From the NCBI RefSeq assembly GCF_004010195.1, contig NC_057718.1, positions 49,563,239 to 49,627,238 on the forward strand: a stretch of DNA of 64,000 nt. Reading direction: 5' to 3'. Shown in pieces: positions 19,238-56,927 of the stretch. Under the pieces are notes generated by a model that did no database searches, had not been told where the DNA came from, and saw nothing but the letters and a program-made list of their open reading frames with translations. The DNA comes from Chiloscyllium plagiosum. Its lineage: Eukaryota. The stretch's first letter is position 1; the number at the start of each line of letters is the position of its first letter. Both the position numbers and the translations under genes were made by a program.

Positions 19238-19429
19238 ACAACACCAGGTTATAGTCCAACAGGTTTAATTGGAAGCGCACTAGCTTTCGGAGCGTCAATC
19301 CTTCATCAGATGCCTGATAAAGGAGCGGCGCTCTGAAAACTAGTGTGCTTCCAATTAAACCTGTTGGACTATAACCTGGTGTTGTGTGATTTTTAACTTG
19401 TACTCCTCAATCCAACACCGGCCTCTCCA
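19238..19429 (+). mobile_element. Non-coding fold-back Penelope-like mini-element (family B)
   Basis: 72-bp inverted arms (19238-19309 and 19314-19385) around a 4-nt loop, then a 44-nt unpaired tail. 12-bp TSD AATAAATGTCTT at 19226-19237 and 19430-19441. Hammerhead motifs sit at the inner end of each arm. Confidence 0.82.
19281..19309 (-). ncRNA. Minimal hammerhead ribozyme motif (CUGAUGA core; stem II partly mutated)
   Basis: Minus strand reads CTGATGA-A-GGATTGACGCTCC-GAAA-GCTA. The mirror copy 19314-19342 reads CTGATAA-A-GGAGCGGCGCTCT-GAAA-ACTA. Together they give stem II GGAGC/GCTCC and a palindromic stem III AGCT. Confidence 0.7.
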
Positions 19430-22388
19430 AATAAATGTCTTGGATTCTGAGATTTTGTTGAGTTTTCTGTTCAGCTATTAACTGGAATTTTTTAAAAGGT
19501 TTTGGCATCAAACCAGTATTTTTCTGAATTTATCCTCTCCTCTCCATAATCAGCTGTAATCCCCACCCCGGGACTTCCTTAGAACTGTTAATAGTGAAAC
19601 AGTCAGCCTGAAAGGGGTGGGGTTTGCCTTTATTCCAGTGATCTTAATATAAAGAGTAGATCAGTGGTGGCAGTCAATCAAAGTATGTTAATGAGAATGA
19701 AGAATTAATTTCAATCAATCCTTGGAATACCTAGGCCAAGTGCATGTGATTCATATTGTGCTGAATTTGCACCCAAACGTGTCAATATTGCAGGCTAAAT
19801 TGGATTCTTCAAGCTTTAACATCTATCAGAATGATTGGTACCCATTAATCTCAGCTGTCAAATTCATAATATATGTTCCCAGTAAACAAACACCTATATC
19901 AGAATTGTGCATTTAGATGGTCCTGATCATCTTAGAACAAAGGTTACATGAAGATTGTATGTATCATGTTGCTTTGATGTACAATATGAAAGTTTGACTT
20001 TAATCCACTGGGTCATATTGCAACTGTGAAGAGCCTTGTAAATGCAGATGAGCAATGTGAATACAGATGAATTAGCCTATGTACTATAGCAGCATAGATA
20101 ATCGTAACATTAACTAGGTCATGTCATTGAGAACACCACTGCAGTACAAGAGCTCCTAATGAGACTACTGTTGGCAGTGACCATGAATTGGATATGAGCA
20201 AATTAAAGATAAATCACTTACAACTCCGTAATGAACCATAATCAACCAATTCACTTCAAGGTTAAGAATGTTAGAACAGATTCTGCTCTCTCACTTGGGA
20301 TATCTCCCTGACTTTCTCATTCATGCACCAGCACTAATAGCTCTTTCTGTTAGGCCATTGGATGATGGATGCTATGGAGCTGATCTTATATTCAACGTTA
20401 GGAAATAAGCAAACTGCCTGCTGGTAAATGATGACCCATTATCTGTGATTAGTACTGCCAGGAGTCCATGTATTGCAAAAGATGTGCACAGTTTTTCTAT
20501 CGGTGTCCCCAAGTTTGACAAATAAACTCAAAGCACATCCAACCGCTGACGAGCATCCACAGTCACTAAGAACATTGAGCCTATGAAAGGCCCTGCATTG
20601 TTGACATGTAATCGAGCCGAGGGTTTACTAGCCATTCCCACAAAATACAGGGGAGCAGTTGATGTAATTTTTATCTCTGTTGGCTGTTTCAGTTTTGCCA
20701 TGATTGGATCTTTCTGTATCCAAAGTCTGATATTGTCAGGTGTGACTGGGAGTGTGTCCAGAAAATTTAAAGCCATTGCAGACTCTTCCAGGGATGGTAC
20801 CATCAGTAGTCTATAGGCCTGAAGCTATGAGTGGCACTGCCTTGTCCTCTTTAAGAAGACCCAGCAGGGGTTTGTGTTCTATTATTAATATAAATCTACA
20901 TCTGTAAAGTTATTAGTGGAACTTCCTGACTCCCAATATGACCTCCAAACATTCTTTCTTTTATTGGGCATCTGCATTAGCCGAAGTCCTGGATGCATAC
21001 ACTATTAGGCATTCCATTCCATTGGGCCACGTATGAGCTAATAATATCACACTGCCATACAGGGAGGCACTGTATGTCAATACCAGCGCTCACTTGGGAT
21101 CATAATGCCAACTCCTTAGGGGATGATAGCTGTTTCTTCACTTCCCTGAAAGTGATGGCTTGCCCTTGCAGTTATTTCCAAGGTTGACCCTTTTTAAAGG
21201 TGTTGATGTAATGGCACCAGAATTGATGCTGGAATGTATGAACTTTACAAAATACTTCACCAGTTCAAGGAAAGACCTTAACCCCAGCATAGATGTGGGA
21301 GCCAGGACATTATTGATCAACTTCACTTTATCTTCCAATGGGTGCAACCCGGTCTTGTCAACCTGTAACCTAAACAGGTTGCTTGAGGTGGCTGGAACAC
21401 ACATTTTTCCCTTCTAGAGGTATATTTGCCTGGGAGAAACATTGACAGTCTATGTCCAAGTTCTCTGAGTGCTCCTTATTGGTCTTCCCTGTTATTAGCA
21501 TGTTATCTAGATAATAGTGACCTGGGGTAGACTTTGTAATATGTTCTTCATCAACCGCTGAAAAATGACACGGGCTGACGATACCCCAAATGGCAGTCTC
21601 GTATATTGGTACAAACCTTTATGGGTATCACTTGTAGCATACTTCTGAGAATCCTCACTTAACCATAGCTGCAAGTATGGCTCATGTTCAGCTTCAGGAA
21701 GGACAGCAGCCATGCCAGCTTTGCATATAAATCCTGTATGTGAAGTATTAGGTATTTATCCAGCTGCGAAAAGTAGTTCACTGTTTGTTTAAAATCTCCA
21801 CAAAGGCAAACTGACCCATCAAGGGTCACACTTGGTACGACTGGGGATGCTCGCTTTGCAAACTGTACTGGTTTGATGCTTCCTTAGTTTTCTAACCTCC
21901 TGATTTCTGCCTCTACTTTTTCTCATAAGGCAAATCACACTGGGTGGGTCTTTCAGAGTCATAGGATTGCTTCCTGGTCAACATGAACGCGACCTTGGTT
22001 CCTTTGATAGTCTGTAAACCTTCCTGAGAAACCTCCAGATATTTACTTAGAACTTCACTCAGGCAGCCATTTTCTAATCGAAAAATGTTGAACTGATATC
22101 AGTGATTTTGCCCCATCAAGCTTTGGCTCGAGCATTTTACTACAATCAATGGTAACTGAACCAACTGCTTCTCATGAGAGACCAGGATCAAAGTTGTACC
22201 CGTACTCTGTAAAGGTTCCCCAGTATCGGTTCAGTCTAACCAAGGTCTTGCTCAAACTTAAGGGTTGGTATCCAGAGTGAATTTTGTTAAAGACTGGTCT
22301 GCGATCACTGAAACAGCTGCTTACTCCAACTCAAAGATGACTGTTTTGAGTGAATTTCTTCACAAGCTTACATTTCTCCTGCCCCCAC

Positions 22389-40893: not shown

Positions 40894-41708
40894 AGGGTTT
40901 TGAATATGATTCAAGCCTGTCATCAGGGAAAGATACCAGGAGTAGTGGTTTCATTAGACGCGGAAAAGGCATTTGATAGGGTTGAATGGTCATATTTGTT
41001 TTACACATTGGAAAGGTTTGGCGTTGGAAAGGTGTTTACCAAATGGGTCTCAACATTGTATAGTAATCCCAAAGCGGTTGTGGTTACCAATGGATTAGGT
41101 TCGGATAGCTTCAGTGTGGGTAGGGGCTGCCGTCAGGGATGTCCTCTCTTGCCATTGTTATTTACGGTAATAATTGAACCACTAGCAGAAGCTATACGGG
41201 CTGATCCTAATATAACGGCCCCGAGGATTGGTACAGGTAAACATAAATTTACCCTTTATGCAGATGATGTTCTTCTATTCCTCAGTAATCCTCTGATGTC
41301 CGTGCCTCGCTTAATCCAAGTTATTAATACATTTAGCGCATTCTCAGGCTATAAAATTAATTTCTCAAAATTGGAGGCTATGCCAATGGGTGGCCTTGCT
41401 ATGATACCCCACTTAGTGGACGGATCCCACTTTCCCTTTCGGTGGTCCCTGGAGGGTTTCTTATATTTAGGCATTTTTATTACCCCAGTATTTGGTCAGT
41501 TATACAGGCTAACTTTGTGCGTTTACTGGAGAGGATAAGGCAGGACCTCCAGCGATGGGGAGACCTTCCAATTTCTTGGCTGGGTAGAATAGCACTAATT
41601 AAAATGAATGTCCTGCCCCGTTTCCTATACCCCATGAGAATGCTTCCGGTGATGCTGCCGAGGCTGGCGCTACGTAAATTATATGGCTGGTTGGGTTCCT
41701 TTATCTGG

Positions 41709-42428
41709 AGTTGAAACTTTATTGCTGGAACAGCACAGCAGGTCAGGCAGCATCCAGGGAACAGGAGATTCGACGTTTCGGGCACAGGCCCTTCTTCAGG
41801 AATGAGCAGAGAGTGTTCAGCAGGAGAAGATAAAAGGTAGGGAGGAGGGACTTGGAGGAGGGGAGTTGGAAATGTGATAGGTGGAAAGAGGTCAAGGTGA
41901 GGGTGATAGGTCGGAGTAGGATGGAGGCGGAGAGGACAAGAAGAAGACTGCAGGACAGGAAGGCGGTGCCGGGCGGGAGGGACCCGGCGGAGACAAGGTG
42001 GGGGGAGGGGGGAATGAAGAAACTGGTGAAGTCCAAGTTCATCCCCTGTGGTTGGAGGGCTCCCAGTCGGAAGATAAGACGCTCCTCCTCCGACCGTCGC
42101 GTTGTTGTGGTTTGGCGGTGGATGAGTCCAATGACCTGCATATCCTCGGTGGAGTGGGAGGGGGAGTTGAAATGCTGTGCCACAGGTTGGTGGGGTTGGT
42201 TCGTCCGGGTGGCCCAGAGGTGCTCTCTGAATCGCTCCGCAAGTAGGCGGCCTGTCTCCCCAATATAGAGGAGGCCACACCGGCTGCAGCGGATGCAGTA
42301 GATGATGTGGGTGGAGGTGCAGGTGAATCTGTGGCGGATATGGAAGTTTCCTTTGGGGCCTTGGAGAGAAGTGAGGGGGGAGGTATGGGCGCAAGTGTTG
42401 CACCTCCTGCGGGCGCAAGGGAAGGTGC
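41709..42428 (-). mobile_element. Penelope-like element fragment (Neptune-type; family A) nested in L1
   Basis: Minus strand translates to TFPCARRRCNTCAH (Cys linker) and IIYCIRCSRCGLLYIGETGR..ERFREH (GIY-YIG), then QPQGMN and a pLTR with a hammerhead. CpG-rich, so young. Confidence 0.92.
41768..41803 (-). ncRNA. Minimal type I hammerhead ribozyme motif, core intact
   Basis: Minus strand: ATTC-CTGAAGA-A-GGGC-CTGT-GCCC-GAAA-CGTC-GAAT. Stem I is ATTC/GAAT, stem II is GGGC/GCCC, stem III is loop-less and palindromic (ACGT), and the cleavage triplet is GUC. Confidence 0.85.
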
Positions 42429-43999
42429 ACAGATGCCACTTTTAAACTCTGGAGATCCAGGGGTATCTCATGGCTAGGGGACCTATTTAAAGATGGGGTC
42501 CTGATGTCTTTTGAACAGCTGCGTCAGAAATTCGGATTACCTAATGGAGACTTCTTTCGATACTTAGAAATTCGAGATTATATACAGAAGAAGACTACGT
42601 TATTAGATAGTCTTTATAAATCAGATAGAGAATATAGAGTACTACAACCAATGGGGGTATCTTCCGTCAGTACTATTTATCATTTACTACATGATGAAAT
42701 ATCGGGAGATATGGACAATCTGCTTAAAACATGGAATCAGGATTTGGGACTAGAAAGCTCTATAGAAACGTGGAATGACATTTGGGAAAATGCCAGAAGA
42801 ATCACCATCTGTAACAGAACTCAGGCTATCCAGCTGAAGATACTTCATAGGGCCCGAATCTATTGGCAAAATTTAAGGCAGGAGCATCCCCAATGTGTCC
42901 CAAATGTAAAATAGAGGTGGGCACTCTTGTACATTGCCTATGGACCTGTCATAAGATCCTTAGATACTGGACTAAAGTAGCAAGTACCCTGACAGAAATT
43001 TTAGGAACGGAAATTAAAGTGGACCCTGTATCTCTCCTTTTGGGCTTTTCGAACTTACCCTCCCTGGATATGCATGGGAAGAGACTATTTTCTATTCTCT
43101 CTTTCTGTGCAAGGAAAAATATTTTGGTAAACTGGGTGGCTGAGGGCCCCCCTGGACTTTCAATTTGGCACAGATCAATTATGGAATGTATTCCCCTTGA
43201 CTTCCTTACAAATATGGTGCACCGAAAGACCAAATTATTTCATAAAATATGGCAGCCCTTCTTGAATTATATGAGTACAGATATTTCGGTATCCTAACAA
43301 GGGCTTTTATTTAATTGAGATTACGAACCTGGCTGGTTCGGGGCTCCTTGGGAGAGAAATTCCGCACGAATACGGGTTTTGTTCCATTTAATGTTAACAC
43401 ATTCCGAGCATGTATCTATCTCACTACCCAATTTCTGTGTTATCCGTTGTTTTTTTTTTCTTTCTCTTATTTGAATCATGTAAGAGACTTAAATATACAC
43501 TCTGGTTAGTTGTAGGTTAGATTAGTAGTTAGTTGAGTTTTGTTTTTTTTTATTTATCAGTATTTTTCTTTTGTTAAATTTTGTTTATTATTATTCAACA
43601 AAATACTTTTAAGACCTTCTGTCTTTGGGACATTGACATTAAAGGTATGGATACAAAACATGCTGCTCCAGGCAAATTTCTTACAATATTTGTTCAGAAC
43701 AAATGGAAAGTGTTACCTGAATGGTTAATTGCATGGATTGAATGCATCCCTTTGTGCTTTGAGCTGTGTTAAAAGTGACTTGCCTTTTTTTTACTACATT
43801 GTATTCTATTACAAATTGGTTCATTCTGTAAAGTTACTTTATTTCATTACTCGCCCATTGTCTGAGTGACAGATACATGAAATTATGCAGTTCAATTTAT
43901 AATTCATTGTGAATGAAGCTAAATGTAGAACATTAAATTCTTAGTAAGTGCTCCCTCTGATTCTGTGAAATGGAAAATTATATCAATTAGTTGGCAGTC

Positions 44000-47805: not shown

Positions 47806-48760
47806 AAGTCCCCATTGGAGAAATTGGGAAATTTCAAACCAGCATCTACAGGAGAACAACACATACGGACCAAATATTGAACTACAGAAGCAATCACCCC
47901 AACATCCACAACGAAGCTGTATCAGAACATTATTTCAATGAGCCAACACACATTGCAGCACAGAGGAACTACCAAGAACAGAGGAAAATCATCTATACAA
48001 TGTATTCAAAAAGAATGGGTACCCAATGAACACAGTCTGCAGATTTCTCAGCAACAAACCCAAACAAGCAAACAAAATGTGTCCAGAAACCTTAGCCACT
48101 CTCCCCTATATCAAAGACACCTCAGAAATAACTGCCAGACTACTCAGACCTCTTGGCATCATGGTAGCCCACAAACCTACCAACACACTAAAACAGCATT
48201 TAATGAACTTAAAAGACCCTATACAGACAACAAGCAAAGCTAATGTAATTTGCAAAATACCGTGCAACGACTGTAACAAATGCTACATTGGACAAACAGG
48301 CAGAAAACTAGCCACCAGGATACATGAACATCAACTAACCACAAAACGACATGACCCACTCTCACTATTATCTTTACATACAGATGAGGTAGGACACCAT
48401 TTTGACTAGGACAACATGTCCATCCTAGGACAATCCAAAAAGAGATACGCATGAGAATTCCAAGAACTATGGCATTCCAACTAGAACTCTATCATCAAAC
48501 ACATTGACTTGGACCCGATTTATGACCCTCTGAGAAAAAGTACATGAAATGACATCACATAGGAAATAACATCACTACAGGAAATGACATCACCAATCCA
48601 AAGAAACCTAAACATATAAATCATCAGGAGTGCTTCGTCTGGAGGCTCACTGAAGATGTTACCTGTATGGTAGTGAAACGTCTGAAAATGAACCATCTAG
48701 CTCAGTGAGCAAACCCACATCTAGAACCTCAACCTGAGCTACAAATCTTCTCAAAGCTCA
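47806..48760 (+). mobile_element. 5'-truncated Penelope-like element (Poseidon-type; family C)
   Basis: SIYRRTTHTDQILNYRSNHP (RT thumb), TLPYIK, NVICKIPCNDCNKCYIGQTGRKLATRIHEH (GIY-YIG), then a pLTR with a hammerhead and a tail. Confidence 0.92.
48647..48685 (+). ncRNA. Minimal hammerhead ribozyme motif
   Basis: TCA-CTGAAGA-T-GTTACC-TGTAT-GGTAGT-GAAA-CGTC-TGA. Stem I is TCA/TGA, stem II has wobble pairs, stem III is palindromic ACGT. Confidence 0.75.
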
Positions 48761-48946
48761 CTAATAATATTGGTAATTATAAACTTTATAAAATATGTGG
48801 CTGTATTCTACAATCCCCTGCAAGGTGTAGCTCTTGCAAGGGGCACATAAATATGATGGGTACCCACAGCCTTCGTGTCCATTCTCAACCCAGTTGCCAT
48901 AACATGAGAAGTGGGTATGGTGTCCACCAGCCCTTAGGCCTTTCAA

Positions 48947-49446: not shown

Positions 49447-49834
49447 GTCGTTGATTAAGTGGCTGAAGGTGGTTATACTGAAGACAATAGCCTGAGGAAC
49501 TCCTGCAGAGATGTCTTGGGGCTGAGATGATTGGCCTCAATTGACTCTAACCATCTTTGTTTGTGATAGGGCTGATTCCAATCAGTGGATAGTTTTCTGT
49601 CTGATTCCCATTGACTCCAGTTTTGATAAGATGGAACCAAAACTAGCATCACTGCGCAGGTTATTCTTTTGCAAGAGTTGCTAGATCACATTATTAATTA
49701 CTCCTTACATGACTTTGCTGATGATTGAAAGTGACCAAAGAGTGTAGTAATTGGCCAGGATGGGTTTATCATGTATTTTGCCCAAATTTCCACGTTGTGG
49801 AATTTTCTATATTGTTGGGTAGATAGCAGTGTTG
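49447..49834 (-). mobile_element. Old CR1/L2-group LINE RT fragment (target of the following PLE)
   Basis: Reverse complement gives ANYYTLWSLSIISKVM, KLESMGI and SQPQDISAGVPQ..INDX. Confidence 0.7.
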
Positions 49835-51264
49835 AAAATGTGTTGCTGGAAAAGCACAGCAGGTCAGGCAGCATCCAAGGAACAGGAGAATCGACGTTTT
49901 GGGCATAAGCCCTTCTTCAGGAATGAGGAAAGTGTGTCCAGCAGGCTAAGATAAAAGGTAGGGAGGAGGGACTTGGGGGAGGNNNNNNNNNNNNNNNNNN
50001 NNNNNNNNNNNNNNNNNNNNNNNNNNNNNNNNNNNNNNNNNNNNNNNNNNNNNNNNNNNNNNNNNNNNNNNNNNNNNNNNNNNNNNNNNNNNNNNNNNNN
50101 NNNNNNNNNNNNNNNNNNNNNNNNNNNNNNNNNNNNNNNNNNNNNNNNNNNNNNNNNNNNNNNNNNNNNNNNNNNNNNNNNNNNNNNNNNNNNNNNNNNN
50201 NNNNNNNNNNNNNNNNNNNNNNNNNNNNNNNNNNNNNNNNNNNNNNNNNNNNNNNNNNNNNNNNNNNNNNNNNNNNNNNNNNNNNNNNNNNNNNNNNNNN
50301 NNNNNNNNNNNNNNNNNNNNNNNNNNNNNNNNNNNNNNNNNNNGTCTTTTCGGAATGCTGATGGGGGAGGGGAGGGAAATATATCACTGGTGGTGAGGTC
50401 CGTTTGGAGGTGGCGGAAATGACGGCGGATGATACGTTGCACATGGAGGTTGGTGGGGTGGTAGGTGAGGACCAGTGGGGTTCTGTCCTGATGGCGGTTG
50501 GAGGGGCGGGGCTCAAGGGCGGAGGAGCAGGAAGTGGAAGAGATGCAGTGGAGGCATCGTCGACTACGTCTGGCGGGAAATTGCGGTCCTTGAAGAAGGA
50601 GGCCATCTGGGTTGTACGGTTTTGGAACTGGTCCTCCTGGGAGCAGACGCGGCGGAGACGAAGGAATTGGGAAAATGGAATGGCGTTTTTATAGGGGGCA
50701 GGATGGGAGGAGATGTAGTCTAGGTAGCTGTGGGAGTCGGTCGGTTTATAGTAGGTGTCCGTGTCGATTCGGTCACCCGAGATAGAAATGAAAAGGTCTA
50801 GGAAGGGGAGGGAAGAGTCTGAGACGGTCCAGGTGAATTTGAGGTGGGGTGGAAGGTGTTGGTAAAGTGGATGAACTGTTCAACCTCCTCATGGGAGCAC
50901 GAGGCAGCGCCGATACAACTTCTCTTTCCAATCCTCCCACTTCCTCCAAACCAAAGGAGTAGCCATGGGCACCCGCATAGGCTCCAGCTATGCCTGCCTC
51001 TTCATAGGATATGTGGAACAGTCCATCTTCCGCAGCTACACTGGCACTACCCCCCACCTTTTCCTCCATGGAGTGGGAGTGGTCTTTTCGGAACGCTGAT
51101 AGGGGAGTCACGGAGGGAGTGGTCTTTTCGGAACGCTGATAGGGGAGGGGAGGGAAATATATCACTGGTGGTGGGGTCCGTTTGGAGATGGCGGAAATAA
51201 CGGCGGATGATACGTTGTACATGGAGCTCTGATCTCCGGCATCTGCAGCCCTCACTTTCTCTCA
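49835..51264 (-). mobile_element. Rearranged Penelope-like insertion (family A), TSD-bounded
   Basis: 15-bp direct repeat TAGATAGCAGTGTTG at 49820-49834 and 51265-51279. Contains a minus pLTR with a mutated hammerhead (GAAA>AAAA), a gap, a minus RT part, a plus-strand RT piece (QTKGVAMGTR), a duplicated minus piece and a plus-strand tail. Confidence 0.9.
49983..50343. other. Assembly gap (N run)
   Basis: Run of N. Confidence 1.
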
Positions 51265-52074
51265 TAGATAGCAGTGTTGTGGTGTACTGCTCCTCACCTC
51301 TCACCAAGCCCATAAAATTCAACTGATGCGCTCAGTGTCAAGATATCCTTCGCTTGAGGAGTGAACTGATATCAAATATTGTGTTGTCCATATCCTTTAA
51401 ACAGTAGGACTCCAAATCTTCAAAAAGGATTAACAGAAGTATTTTCCCCAAAGGATTAACTTCTCAGGATATGTTTCATCTCTTTTATTAATTGATGCAT
51501 TTGTCCTTAGCGCAATTATTTTGCAGTTTCTTGTCATGTTCGAGGTTTGTCGTGTTTTCTAAACTGCATACAATTCAAATAAGAAAAATCAATGGATGGC
51601 AGAGAAGCACAGTGGAATGGAATCCTAAATTTCACATTGTAGAAAGATAGCATTTGTGTTTACACCTGCTTAAGGAAATCTTCGCATTTCAGACATTTTA
51701 TTTGAGAAGTGTGAGGCAGTATCTAGATCTCACCCTAGTGGGATCAAAATATCTGCTAGTTATCCCTGTGCTCTGATACCTTCCATAGGGGCTTGAGCAG
51801 TAGCCTGGCAGCAGCATTCTTGTCCAACACCTTGGTCAAGAGGATGTATGGGGGAGGGAATCTCAAAAAGAGCAGAAAGTAATTTTACACTACCAAAACA
51901 GAAGAATCTGACTTAACCATCAACTTAAATGTTCTCAGATTAATAAAAAAAAACCTGTCTAACAACTCTGGAGAGGCATAAATCACTATTATTATACAAA
52001 ATAGTGGCTGGGAGAATCAGTCTCTATTGAAACTAGGAATATCCTGTATCTGTGCATGTTATTTTGGCTCATTG

Positions 52075-52780: not shown

Positions 52781-53559
52781 TTCTCCAACACCACTCCAGC
52801 AACTGCCTAATTAGTGTGATATAATGCGATTCATGAAAATCACGAGGAGATAACTGATCACCGTTGTGTCAGGGCTTCAGGACTGTGAAGCCACCTTGTG
52901 ACAAGGTCACAGAGCTTAATTAGCATAATTAGCACAGTGGGGTCCAAGTTAGAACACACTACAAGAAACATTCTGGAAGATACACTGTGAGACACTTTGG
53001 AAAAAAAGTAAAGTGAGCACATGGACATGAACACATGAAGAAGCTATTTAATCCTTACTGACGTAACTATAATGTAGAGCCTGGTGTATCAATGATTGCC
53101 ATGGAGAGCAATATTAATATAAAAGTCTGAAAGAAAGTGTTACTTTGAAATTTAGCCCTAAAGATATTTCTTGATTTTGCTTTCTCCTCGATTAGTCTGT
53201 CTTGAATTTAAATCCAGCATATTAAATCAAATCACATGAAATAGCAGGCAGAGAGAGATTTTAGGCATTACACTAGAATATTTGACAACCTACTAGGTAA
53301 AGATGTAAATGATAGAGTGTAACTAACAAGGTTATGATCCAATAGAAGAAATAAAATTATTGAGACAGCTTTGATAGAAGGAGCCAAGTTTTGTCATGAG
53401 AGGTGAATAATTGGTGCAAGACCATCTCTTTGCCATTTTTCATGGGCTTTGCTGTTAGTATAACATCCAAAAGGTTTGTTTCCCTCTCCCACGCAATTGG
53501 GAATTGAGTAAACATGCCAAGCAAGTGTGAATTTTCTTATGCAATGAGATTAAGCAATT

Positions 53560-54758
53560 AACGAGTTTTGAGAAGATTTGTGACTCAGGTTGAGGATCTG
53601 GAAGTAAGTTTGCTTGCTGAGCTGGAAGGTTTGTTTTCAGATGTTTCGTCACCATACCATAACATCATCTTCAGTGAGCCTCTTGTGAAACACTGATGGT
53701 ATGGCCCACTTTTTATTTATGTGCTTCGGTTTCCTTGGGTTGGTGATGTCATTTCCTGTGGTGATGTCATTTCCTTTTTTTCTCAGGGGGTGGTAAATAG
53801 GATCCAAGTTGATAGAGTTCCGGTTAGAATGCCATGCTTCTAGGAATTCTCGTGTGTATCCATATTTTGCTTGTCCTAGGATGGATGAGTTGTCCCAGTC
53901 AAAGTATGTCCTTCCTCATCTGTATGTAAAGATACTAGTGAGAGTGGGTCATACATCTTTGTGGCTAGTTGATGTTCATGTATCCTGGTGGCTAGTTTTC
54001 TGCCTGTTTGTCCAATGTAGTGTTTGTTACAGTTTTTGCAAGGTATTTTGTAAATTATATTAGTTTTGCTTGTTGTCAATAGAGTCTTTCAAGTTCATTA
54101 GCTGCTGCTTCAGTGTCCCAGTGGGTTTGTGGGCTACCCTGATGCCAAGGGGTCTGAGTAGTCTGGCAGTCATTTCTGAGATTTTTTTGTTGTAGTGGAG
54201 AATGGCTAGGGTTTCTGGATGCATTTCGTCTGTTTGTTTGGGTTTGTTACTGAGAAATCGGAGGGCTGTGTTCATTGGGTACCCATTCTTTTTTAATAGG
54301 TAATTTCCCTCTGCTCTGCGTAGTTCTTCTGTGCTGCAGTGTGTGGTGCTCATTGAAATAAGTTCTAATGCAGCTTCATTTATGGATGTTGGGATGATTG
54401 TTTCTGTAGTTCAATATTTGGTCCGTGTGTGTTGTTTTCCTGTTGACACTGGTTTGAAGTTCCCCATTGGCTGTTTGCTCTACTGCGACATCTAGGAATG
54501 GCAATTTGTTGTTGTTTTCCTCCTATTTAGTGAATTTTATGCCAGTAAAGGTATTGTTGATGGTCCTCTAATTTGTTTTGTTTTCTAAAGAACAAGAAAT
54601 GATGTCACCACAGGAAATGACGTCACCAACCCAAGAACATAAAGAAAATGAGGGCTATACCACCAGTGCTTCACTGGAGGCTCACTGCTGATGTTACCCA
54701 GTATGATGATGAAACATCGGAAAACAAACCTTCCTGCTCAGTGAACAAACTTACATCC
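53560..54758 (-). mobile_element. Penelope-like element (family C) with 5' inverted pLTR
   Basis: Minus ORFs give NIIYKIPCKNCNKHYIGQTGRKLATRIHEH. A tail-less inverted pLTR lies on plus at ~54590-54758. 13-bp TSD AGATTAAG(C/G)AATT at 53547-53559 and 54759-54771. Degenerate hammerheads at 53637-53677 (-) and ~54682-54721 (+). Confidence 0.92.
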
Positions 54759-56694
54759 AGATTAAGGAATTGTCAGTGAAAAGCACAGTCCAAACCAGGA
54801 ATGGTTAGAGTAATGAATTCACTTCAATTCAGATTTCTAAAACAAGAGGGAAAGACAAATTGGACTGAAAAAGAAAGAAAAATGAGTGAGAAAGAAAAAA
54901 AGGTAAACTTTTAATAATAATGAAAAGCTTGAAGGAATGGAATTCAACATTTAAAGTTTTTTTCATTAACATTAATAGTAGAAGTTAAGGCTCATTATTC
55001 TGTTATTACTACATGTCGGCTTTGACAAGATTAGTCTGTATTTATGACATTAGTGCTGAAAAACTATACTGTTTGATGACATAGTTTCTTGGATCAAACT
55101 CCAGTGCCAGCATTACGTGGTCTGAATGCTTCCTTCTATGTTAGATCACATAACATATCCCACATAGGCTGGGCACATGTTGAGACAGATGTATGAAGTT
55201 GATTGATAACACTAAATATTTACATTGCTCTAATATTTCAGTCTTACACATACTCTGGGTCCTTTGTTTACTAAAGTTACTGCATTACGTATGCATGACT
55301 GACACATTACACTGTCTCCATTACAATGAAAATGTGAGTGAAGATGAGTCAAGTACCTTTATAGTGGAACATCACACATTGTGAACTGTCTTAAAGGTAC
55401 AGTGCCCATCTGATTTTGAATTCATTCAATGACATAATATTTAACACTTCCGAATAGGGAGCCAGGTAGCAAGACACTGTTTTGTTCAGTTTATGGAAGA
55501 GCCATGCATCGTGCACAGCAACTTTGAAATTTCTAATTTAACTGTGCATCTTCAATCACATACATATTGTTTGCCTTTTCATTATTTTTATAGCGTGATC
55601 CAGCCTTGTAATTTTGTTCAGCAACATGATCTAATTCAGAAGTACAATATTTTGTGAATAGTCCAGAAATACTGCAGATTGGCTGAGGTTGGTATTCTCA
55701 ACACCTTATGAAAACTAGTCATGCTGACATTGTTTACTAGGGTTTACCTTCATTCAAACTGAATAGAATTGCTTCCTCTGGTAGTCGAGTATATGAGATT
55801 TAGCTGACTGAAAATTATCATCTTATAATGGGATTTTTGAGGAATATTTACATTATTTAAATTATAACATAATGTATATAATACACAGAAACCATGAAAT
55901 GCCCATAATGTACAGATGAGGTAAAAAGTCAACTAAATATAATTCCTAAGCTCCACTGCAGGATTGGAACAAAATTAAACATGGAACAAGTGGAATAATT
56001 TCTGTGGATATGAATGCGAAACTGTGCACTTCTGCTAAGCAACACCTGGTCATTTAACTCTGCTGATTTTGGACATGCTGTGTGAAAATTATTTGTCATA
56101 TTCATCTTAAAGAACAACAATAGTTTTATTGGATGTGTCATGCTTTGAAATGTCATGAGGCACTTTAATATGTAAATTTGTTTCAGGCCTCATTTGGAAT
56201 TTTCTGTGTTGCATTAATGAAAATTGACATCAGACAACAAGAAATGTGTTCACTTGCTGGATTTACAGTTAGCATTAAAATGTGACATCAGCATCACATT
56301 TGCTTATATCTAACTCAGGATAAATCAATCTAATATCTTGATTTTCTTCAATGTGGAGAGTATCTGCTATATTAACAAGAAAACAAAATCCTTTAGGCTG
56401 CTAAGTGTTTGTGCTCAATGTGCAGTATAACTCCAATGGATCCTAAACAGTTTCTAATTAACCTTATCAGAGACGTCACTATACAACTCTGGAGTAGGTG
56501 AACTGAAGTGAGGTCTCGTAGCTTAAAGGTAGTGATACTACCATTATGCAACAAGGTTCCCAACCTCTGTCAGGAAGAGTGATGTGGGACACCTGGAAAA
56601 GGAAATCACACCTGGTAAGGGAGCCCTCTAAGTTTACTTGATATAGTTTAAACAAGGTTGAACAGATATATGAGACTGGTAGTTTTTCAATTAA

Positions 56695-56913
56695 GGAGAA
56701 AGTGAGGTCTGCAGATGCTGGAGATCAGAGATGGAAATGTGTTGCTGGAAAAGCGCAGCAGGTCAGGCAGCATCTAGGGAACAGGAGAATCGACGTTTCG
56801 GGCATTAGCCCTTCTTCAGGGTTGAAGAAGGGCTAATGCCCGAAACGTCGATTCTCCTGTTCCCTAGATGCTGCCTGACCTGCTGCGCTTTTCCAGCAAC
56901 ACATTTCCATCTC
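56695..56913 (-). mobile_element. Non-coding fold-back Penelope-like mini-element (family A)
   Basis: Perfect 91-bp inverted repeat (56728-56818 and 56823-56913) with 4-nt loop GGGT, a 33-nt unpaired tail at 56695-56727, and an exact 14-bp TSD AGTTTTTCAATTAA at 56681-56694 and 56914-56927. The arms are homologous to the PLE ends at 41709 and 49835. Confidence 0.92.
56792..56819 (-). ncRNA. Minimal hammerhead ribozyme core
   Basis: Minus strand: CTGAAGA-A-GGGC-TAAT-GCCC-GAAA-CGTC. The mirror copy on plus starts TTGAAGA (C3 lost at the fold). Confidence 0.8.
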
Positions 56914-56927
56914 AGTTTTTCAATTAA

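What the first reader, a model, noticed from the sequence alone, without database searches (positions are those of the whole stretch)
56681..56927. Perfect 91-bp hairpin retro-insertion made of two back-to-back hammerhead ribozymes
Seen: exact 14-bp TSD, 33-nt tail, zero mismatches between the arms (very recent), and a 4-nt loop directly abutting the CUGAAGA core. The arms are the terminal repeat of the Neptune-type PLE at 41709 and 49835. The fold point is the 5' edge of the catalytic core, not the GUC cleavage site, and the unrelated 19238 element folds at the same place. Inference: reverse transcription stalls or switches strand at the folded ribozyme, producing stereotyped ~200-bp palindromes. 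These may be dead-end products or a self-propagating non-autonomous class that looks like a MITE but moves by retrotransposition. Any read-through transcript from either strand would form a long dsRNA hairpin able to yield siRNAs against the parent PLE. PLE hammerheads and inversions are known; I do not know of a description of a ribozyme-fixed fold point, but I cannot check the literature here.
Basis: partly seen in the sequence, partly recalled or inferred. Interest (0 to 1): 0.75.

Follow-up and report, generated by a model that had tools for sequence, protein, structure and literature searches.

The report
Penelope hairpins stop at RNA start
This 219-base mirror-image insertion is one of an estimated thousands of short stubs of a Penelope-type jumping gene, and it likely forms when both cut DNA ends copy the element's RNA up to its capped start and are joined head to head, not when copying stalls at the ribozyme.

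Summary
The hairpin is real: 91-bp perfect arms, 4-nt loop, 33-nt one-sided tail, exact 14-bp TSD. It is not two working ribozymes: the plus arm has lost C3, neither arm keeps stem I, and the duplex dominates folding. It is not a self-copying family: 47 of 90 unselected copies are short hairpins, with 40 different junctions, and this junction occurs twice in the genome. Arm ends pile against a sharp wall 4 nt 5' of the core (70 of 115 ends at 123-130, 2 at 131-170, 5 near the cleavage site). In the 19238 family the wall is 8 nt 5' of the core. Both walls start an initiator-like CA, and cDNA ends there often carry an extra C, as a 5' cap would give. Best reading (0.7): two cDNAs, primed at the two known Penelope RT start sites, run off the capped RNA start and are end-joined. 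The RNA start itself is inferred, not observed. Inverted pLTRs with a tail are known; I found no paper on a capped-start fold point. The scan reached this reading before on other DNA, including this genome.

The parts
56681..56694 (.). Left target-site duplication (14 bp)
   Evidence: exact repeat of 56914-56927
56695..56727 (-). 33-nt PLE tail, on one side only; its outer end is the likely outer RT start
   Evidence: matches tail at 51227-51261; present in all 90 sampled copies by selection; tail = interval between two RT starts in PMC11167929
56728..56820 (-). Tail-bearing arm (first cDNA): pLTR end with intact core, stem II, GAAA and GUC; matches the parent to position 126 from the tail end, 3 nt short of the wall at 129
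56819..56822 (.). 4-nt loop; the first two bases are parent-derived, the last two are not in the parent (junction insertion)
   Evidence: comparison with long copies L107 and L170
56823..56913 (+). Tail-less inverted arm (second cDNA): begins inside the core (C3 absent), ends at the tail boundary, the likely inner RT start
   Evidence: 42 of 47 inverted arms end at positions 28-44 and none within 10 nt of the tail end
56914..56927 (.). Right target-site duplication (14 bp)
41709..42427 (-). 5'-truncated copy of the parent PLE (sister subfamily): GIY-YIG end of ORF plus tail-less pLTR
   Evidence: 94% to L170; GIY-YIG PF01541
49835..51264 (.). Longer insertion of the same PLE: long tail-less arm at one end, tail alone in the opposite orientation at the other, 15-bp TSD (49820-49834, 51265-51279)
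   Evidence: sequence, blast
19238..19432 (.). Hairpin of a second PLE family, same architecture, tail on the right
   Evidence: 17,399 exact arm matches in the genome

Best explanation
The element is a dead-end insertion of an endonuclease-bearing Penelope-like retrotransposon, likely made of two short cDNAs that were primed from the two cut target strands, likely ran off the capped 5' end of the element's RNA just before the hammerhead, and were then likely joined head to head. Steps: (1) the GIY-YIG endonuclease cuts both strands about 14 nt apart (TSD shown; enzyme inferred). (2) One DNA end primes RT at the outer start (tail end), the other at the inner start about 33 nt further 5' (end positions shown; two starts and extension of both strands shown in vitro for another PLE). 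(3) On an RNA that begins in the pLTR, these starts lie only about 129 and 95 nt from its 5' end, so both cDNAs are short run-off products and often gain a C opposite the cap (wall and extra C shown; RNA start and cap inferred). (4) The two 3' ends are trimmed by 0 to about 15 nt and end-joined with microhomology or small insertions (junctions shown; pathway inferred). The ribozyme sits at the fold only because it is the first thing in the transcript.
For: Sample: the first 90 of 5,036 exact hits of a tail-side 40-mer, not selected for hairpins: 47 short hairpins, 21 short copies without an adjacent inverted arm, 19 long, 3 gapped. Of 115 short-copy ends, 70 lie at 123-130, 2 at 131-170, 5 at 94-101 (cleavage site 97/98): a one-sided wall at 129. 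Family 2, 74 arms: 19 end before the core (or were not matched), 34 at 0-8 nt 5' of C3, 3 at 9-10, 18 long. Both walls start at the A of a pyrimidine-C-A initiator-like motif (consensus recalled), and neither follows a splice-acceptor AG. Base after the wall, hand tallies of the first 100 listed rows: family 1 C 44, A 8, T 48 (19 T rows are the self-complementary junction, mostly counted twice; of 777 hits) against C 30, A 70 one base earlier (of 489); family 2 C 71, A 16, T 13 (8 rows are substitutions in long copies; of 2,569). In 19 of 37 family-1 solo loci where a TSD was found, C lay outside the TSD in 7 of 8, whereas A or T was target DNA in 10 of 11 (Fisher p = 0.0012). Two independent cDNAs: the tail-less arm reaches further than the tail-bearing arm in 30 of 47 hairpins, less far in 14, equal in 3; TSD-bounded solos come in both sizes, 9 at 93-96 bp and 10 at 125-131 bp; the extra base occurs on both arm types and on both arms of one locus, L201/L202. 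Literature: two RT starts flank the tail, both strands are cut and extended, dimer predicted, ribozyme cleavage not needed (PMC11167929, parts 1-2 of 4 read); Penelope's transcription start and initiator lie in the pLTR (PMC2377424, PMC8557442, passages); an extra G marks the cap in full-length L1 insertions (PMC11702581, passage).
Against: No RNA start was observed: poly(A) single-cell reads showed no place where many molecules begin. No full-length copy with a 5' pLTR joined to the ORF start was found, so the source RNA is unidentified. This copy has no extra C and stops 3 nt short of the wall. About 18 of the 44 family-1 C rows could be templated by the opposite arm, and the one-base-earlier control is inflated for A by element sequence. 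In family 2 the TSD test gave no support: only 6 of 31 loci had a TSD, and the one C among them was inside it. In the family-1 TSD test 18 of 37 loci were dropped for lack of a TSD, the loci were picked by eye as not followed by element sequence, and only 1 of the 7 C cases is a single extra base (6 have 2-11). The family-2 motif fits the strict initiator consensus only in part. Later deletions at palindrome centres could create some of the arm asymmetry.
Confidence: 0.7

Rival explanations
1. One cDNA runs off the RNA start, folds back on itself and copies itself; asymmetry comes from later deletions at the palindrome centre, and the tail from endonuclease resolution.
For: Some junctions show short snap-back on stem II (L038, L075, L120). 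Arms usually share subfamily variants (1.2% mismatch). Self-priming was proposed for junction palindromes in rotifer PLEs (PMC3846280, passages).
Against: The tail-less arm holds sequence missing from the tail-bearing arm in 30 of 47, and the reverse in 14. The extra G sits at the start of a tail-less arm whose partner stops 13 nt earlier (L074). Tail-less TSD-bounded solos exist. No inverted arm copies into the outer tail (0 of 47 within 10 nt).
Confidence: 0.1
2. One reading: RT stalls or switches strand at the folded or protein-bound hammerhead.
For: Ends cluster within 10 nt of the core in both families. The PLE hammerhead is protein-assisted in vitro (PMC11167929).
Against: Stops come after the whole motif has been copied; offsets differ (4 and 8 nt); the limit is one-sided and sharp; the extra C is unexplained; 19 of 90 copies pass straight through; no strong structure at the wall in the parent RNA (z = -0.39).
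Confidence: 0.08
3. The wall is an uncapped processed RNA end, or a master copy that itself begins with a G there, so the C is templated without a cap.
For: Fits the wall and part of the C excess; no cap was assayed.
Against: The predicted ribozyme cut is 31 nt away. Sequence after the C is not shared among loci. The same base appears in two unrelated families, both at initiator-like sites.
Confidence: 0.07
4. A self-propagating, MITE-like palindromic family moved in trans by the PLE protein.
For: One junction recurs in 5 of 47 hairpins and three others twice; one loop type recurs in 7 of the 30 best-match loci (26 distinct places).
Against: 40 distinct junctions in 47. The 5-copy junction uses a 2-nt microhomology and its members differ at the outer end. 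The recurrent loop spans different parent subfamilies. This exact junction has 2 genomic hits, the second in another subfamily at 92% identity. Common variants are shared with long copies.
Confidence: 0.04
5. Library or assembly fold-back artefact.
For: The assembly is gapped in repeats; no read evidence across this site was obtained.
Against: Exact TSD, one-sided tail, and dozens of independent loci with their own TSDs and post-insertion arm mismatches.
Confidence: 0.01

Closest known systems
Insertions of endonuclease-positive Penelope-like elements with inverted 5'-truncated pLTR and one-sided 30-40 bp tail (PMC8557442 and PMC3846280, passages; PMC2377424, passages)
   Same: Head-to-head inverted pLTR, tail on one side, variable TSD, palindrome at the junction; parent ORF with RT, Cys linker and C-terminal GIY-YIG.
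   Different: Here the unit is minimal (no ORF), makes up about half of the sampled copies, and ends at a fixed wall with an extra C. The passages read explain the junction by self-priming on an antisense template and the tail by endonuclease resolution, not by two run-off cDNAs.
PAc (Anolis Poseidon) in vitro mechanism (PMC11167929, parts 1-2 of 4)
   Same: Two RT starts bracket the tail; both target strands cut and extended; ribozyme cleavage dispensable.
   Different: The parts read do not address inverted copies or where cDNA ends; different PLE clade.
Minimal type I hammerheads of metazoan PLEs (PMC4209133, parts 1-2 of 4)
   Same: Core, extra base before stem II, palindromic minimal stem III; that paper notes pairs of motifs 100-700 bp apart on opposite strands in Schistosoma.
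   Different: Here the motifs abut, one lacks C3, stem I is lost and the duplex sequesters both.
L1 twin priming and cap-derived extra G (PMC11702581, passages)
   Same: Second DNA end primes a second cDNA; TSD kept; microhomology junctions; extra base from the cap.
   Different: L1 twin priming inverts a different, non-overlapping part of the RNA; here both primers copy the same 95 nt, giving a palindrome.
Non-LTR retrozymes (bioRxiv 10.64898/2026.07.22.740005, part 1 of 5 and passages)
   Same: Short, non-coding, hammerhead-bearing, PLE pLTR-derived.
   Different: Retrozymes are head-to-tail tandems; these are dispersed head-to-head single events.

Membership tests
EN+ Penelope-like element (parent and insertion) | Single ORF with RT and C-terminal GIY-YIG | tested here: met
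   L170, 754-aa 5'-truncated ORF: PF00078 32.5 bits (cut-off 29.6), PF01541 21.7 bits (cut-off 22.6, just under); window copy PF01541 24 bits
EN+ Penelope-like element (parent and insertion) | pLTR with minimal hammerhead, one-sided 30-40 nt tail, inverted truncated copy, TSD | tested here: met
EN+ Penelope-like element (parent and insertion) | Full-length partial-tandem copy with 5' pLTR | tested here: inconclusive
   none found among 20 long-frame loci and 29 upstream extensions; assembly gapped
Neptune/Nematis clades | CX2-5CxxC motif between RT and EN | tested here: met
   motif at aa 531 of the L170 ORF; definition from PMC8557442
Neptune/Nematis clades | RT phylogeny separating Neptune from Nematis | not tested
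   no reference set fetched
Functional minimal type I hammerhead (arms of this element) | Core C3-G8 (or compensated pair), GAAA, NUH | tested here: inconclusive
   met on the minus arm; not met on the plus arm (U3 with G8)
Functional minimal type I hammerhead (arms of this element) | Stem I of 4-5 bp and an accessible fold | tested here: not met
   1 bp or none; duplex -195.5 kcal/mol, forcing stem II alone costs 20.5
Functional minimal type I hammerhead (arms of this element) | Self-cleavage | not testable with these tools
   needs an in vitro assay
MITE-like self-amplifying palindromic family | Copies share one internal junction from a master | tested here: not met
   40 junctions in 47 hairpins; this junction twice in the genome
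MITE-like self-amplifying palindromic family | Symmetric terminal inverted repeats | tested here: not met
   33-nt tail on one end
Non-LTR retrozyme | Head-to-tail tandem units each with a hammerhead | tested here: not met
   head-to-head single unit
Capped-start run-off cDNA (proposed reading) | Extra C at the wall that is neither parent nor target DNA | tested here: met
   family 1: 7 of 8 against 1 of 11, p = 0.0012; family 2 tally C 71 of 100, but its TSD test was inconclusive
Capped-start run-off cDNA (proposed reading) | RNA 5' ends observed at the wall | tested here: inconclusive
   poly(A) single-cell reads, no start peak

The most novel reading that the evidence does not exclude
Every EN+ Penelope insertion is made by a dimer that primes two cDNAs, one from each target strand at the two tail-flanking starts, and the genome's thousands of stubs are 'strong-stop' products of short capped RNAs fired from the pLTR's own promoter. 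If that promoter survives in the stubs, they re-seed as a SINE-like pool whose hairpin junction is remade at each jump, and the extra base maps PLE transcription starts from DNA alone.
Probability: 0.3. Interest if true: 0.72.

Novelty: new variant of a known kind. Interest (0 to 1): 0.5.

Why it matters
How Penelope-like elements form inverted repeats with a one-sided tail is stated as open in PMC8557442. A two-primer, run-off model links the in vitro double start and two-strand extension to genomic structure, and predicts stop position, extra base and arm asymmetry in an existing in vitro system. It also gives a way to read PLE transcription starts from genome sequence. About 2,600 hairpins are estimated for this subfamily alone (47/90 x 5,036); they are potential dsRNA substrates and could be mis-annotated as MITEs. 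The single locus is ordinary; the interest lies in the family-level pattern.

Tried and rejected
Rfam gathering scan: no hit. Cleavage-site fold point: rejected. Splice acceptor at the wall: no AG before either wall. Telomere-like origin of the G/T-rich loop: considered, not needed, since it arises from parent bases plus small insertions. Search for a full-length parent: long open frames were gap artefacts or 5'-truncated; upstream extension reached only about 310 bp; no shared sequence beyond the tail in 171 family-1 and 35 family-2 flanks. Sequencing runs: no RNA holder listed. Raw poly(A) single-cell reads of organism C: X19 laid 1,987 reads on L107, X20 none; depth rises about 3.6-fold at the wall on both strands and a few joints switch strand there, but read-through of genomic stubs or RT artefacts explain this, and substitution counts cannot separate editing from subfamily differences. 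Empty-site test on the left flank plus tail in four contig sets: flank contigs match without differences but none bridges the site, so no answer. The subfamily label failed (all 'other'); only its variant table was used. One search's end finder stopped early at close mismatches and was replaced. Literature searches found no description of PLE palindromes ending at a capped start; subscription papers and Repbase reports are outside the library. I did not open supplements of PMC11167929 or PMC4209133, which may bear on this; those of the bioRxiv preprint are closed. PMC5625713 was read in passages only (lizard Penelope heavily A-to-I edited).

Full report
Observation. The element spans 56695-56913 between exact 14-bp repeats at 56681-56694 and 56914-56927. 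It has a 33-nt tail, a 91-bp arm, a 4-nt loop and a perfect inverted arm. Folded as RNA it gives -195.5 kcal/mol, z = -30.9 against 200 shuffles. The arm matches PLE ends at 41709 and 49835, and the tail matches 51227-51261. The minus arm keeps the hammerhead core, an extra A, a 4-bp stem II, GAAA and GUC. The plus arm has U at C3. The loop replaces the 5' strand of stem I in both, and forcing stem II alone costs 20.5 kcal/mol. These are two remnants of a ribozyme, not two ribozymes likely to fold. Rfam has no hit.

Parent. [quoted passage not shown] This is an endonuclease-positive PLE with a Neptune/Nematis-type linker (PMC8557442, passages); I ran no phylogeny. I found no full-length copy.

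Family survey. A tail-side 40-mer has 5,036 exact matches in the 3.56-Gb genome. I took the first 90 in contig order: 47 short hairpins, 21 short copies without an adjacent inverted arm, 19 long copies, 3 gapped. Numbering from the tail end, the cleavage site is 97/98 and C3 is 125. Of 115 ends of short copies, 70 are at 123-130, 2 at 131-170 and 5 at 94-101. The rest trail off to shorter lengths. This is a one-sided wall at 129 with trimming behind it. The outer end of the inverted arm is at 28-44 in 42 of 47 and never within 10 nt of the tail end. The 47 hairpins have 40 different junctions; the commonest (5 copies) uses a 2-nt microhomology. The junction of this locus has 2 hits genome-wide, the other in a different subfamily. 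Common variants occur in short and long copies alike. Twenty of 47 hairpins have perfect arms, so this copy is typical of a young subfamily.

Second family. The 19238 arm has 17,399 exact matches. Of 74 arms, 19 end before the core or were not matched to it, 34 end 0-8 nt 5' of C3, 3 at 9-10 nt, and 18 are long. The wall is 8 nt from the core here and 4 nt in family 1, so it is not fixed to the ribozyme. Both walls begin at the A of an initiator-like pyrimidine-C-A (consensus recalled; strict fit in family 1, partial in family 2). Neither follows an AG.

Extra base. In hand tallies of the first 100 listed rows, the base after the wall on the cDNA strand (the parent's G excluded by the pattern) was C 44, T 48, A 8 in family 1. 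One base earlier it was C 30, A 70. In family 2 it was C 71, A 16, T 13. Caveats: about 18 family-1 C rows and many family-2 C rows could come from the opposite arm, 19 T rows are the self-complementary junction, and the control is inflated for A. A cleaner test used 37 family-1 loci not followed by element sequence. A TSD of 10 bp or more was found in 19. There, C lay outside the TSD in 7 of 8, while A or T was the target itself in 10 of 11 (p = 0.0012). The same test on 31 family-2 loci found only 6 TSDs, and the single C was inside its TSD, so it adds no support. An extra G at the 5' junction is the known mark of a reverse-transcribed cap in full-length L1 insertions (PMC11702581, passage), and Penelope's start site and initiator lie in its pLTR (PMC2377424, passages).

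Two cDNAs. The tail-less arm extends further than the tail-bearing arm in 30 of 47 hairpins and less far in 14, so neither is simply a copy of the other. TSD-bounded solos fall in two sizes, 9 near 95 bp and 10 near 129 bp. The extra base is found on both arm types and on both arms of L201/L202. The window's 49835-51264 insertion has a long tail-less arm at one end and only the tail at the other. In vitro, an Anolis PLE cuts and extends both strands, starts RT at two sites that bracket the tail, and does not need ribozyme cleavage (PMC11167929, parts 1-2 of 4).

Mechanism. Shown: TSD, tail, the two outer-end positions, the wall, junction diversity, the C excess. Inferred: the wall is the capped RNA start; each target strand primes its own cDNA; the 3' ends are trimmed and end-joined. 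Confidence 0.7. A stall at the folded ribozyme would be expected on its 3' side, does not explain the C, and finds no strong structure at the wall. RNA data did not settle the start and the empty-site test gave no answer. Unexplained: why the tail-less arm more often reaches the wall, and which loci supply the short RNA.

Comparison and novelty. Inverted pLTRs with tails and junction palindromes are known (PMC3846280, PMC8557442, passages), as are opposite-strand hammerhead pairs (PMC4209133, parts 1-2 of 4) and siRNAs from Penelope inverted repeats (PMC3681739, passages). Nine literature searches found no account of a capped-start fold point, within a library that lacks most subscription papers. 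My reading was noted before I opened the scan's earlier findings; one search then showed that other follow-ups, two in this genome, reached the same reading. They are unchecked and not independent support. One of them reports ends also at the cleavage site in another genome; here that site holds only 5 of 115 ends. Verdict: new variant of a known kind; ordinary locus, useful family-level mechanism; interest 0.5.

Noticed in passing
window 49820-51279: PLE insertion with a 15-bp TSD: long tail-less arm, an internal inverted ORF piece (50915-51067), a further ORF piece (51096-51226) and the tail alone at the far end; looks like two cDNAs with template jumps.
   Followed up: partly
window 47825-48765 and 53557-54466: Inverted pair of a third repeat, each with a hammerhead-like core and GAAAC (48650 +, 53674 -); probably another PLE family.
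   Followed up: no
window 41000-41708 and 42428-43297: The 41709 PLE copy interrupts a LINE-like ORF2 (frames); no TSD was looked for.
   Followed up: no
L073 (about 800-1000 nt from the tail end): A hairpin of the 41709-type sister subfamily sits right behind a long copy and folds at the same wall.
   Followed up: partly
L221 upstream 1500 bases: A hairpin is inserted next to a roughly 30-bp tandem repeat that abuts the 5'-most PLE ORF sequence recovered.
   Followed up: no
L038, L075, L120: cDNA end appears to snap back on the stem II hairpin and add 4-6 templated bases before joining the target or the other arm.
   Followed up: partly
L170:5010-5088; L107:850-1037: The ORF reads through the hammerhead region of the 3' pLTR, and a predicted helix pairs sequence upstream of the wall with sequence downstream of the ribozyme; it could form only in read-through RNA, not in RNA starting at the wall.
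   Followed up: no
L246 and G000:C1:64155496: Arms ending at the wall are joined to sense pieces from far upstream in the parent (ORF 5' region; pLTR upstream of the wall), suggesting a second cDNA from a longer RNA.
   Followed up: no
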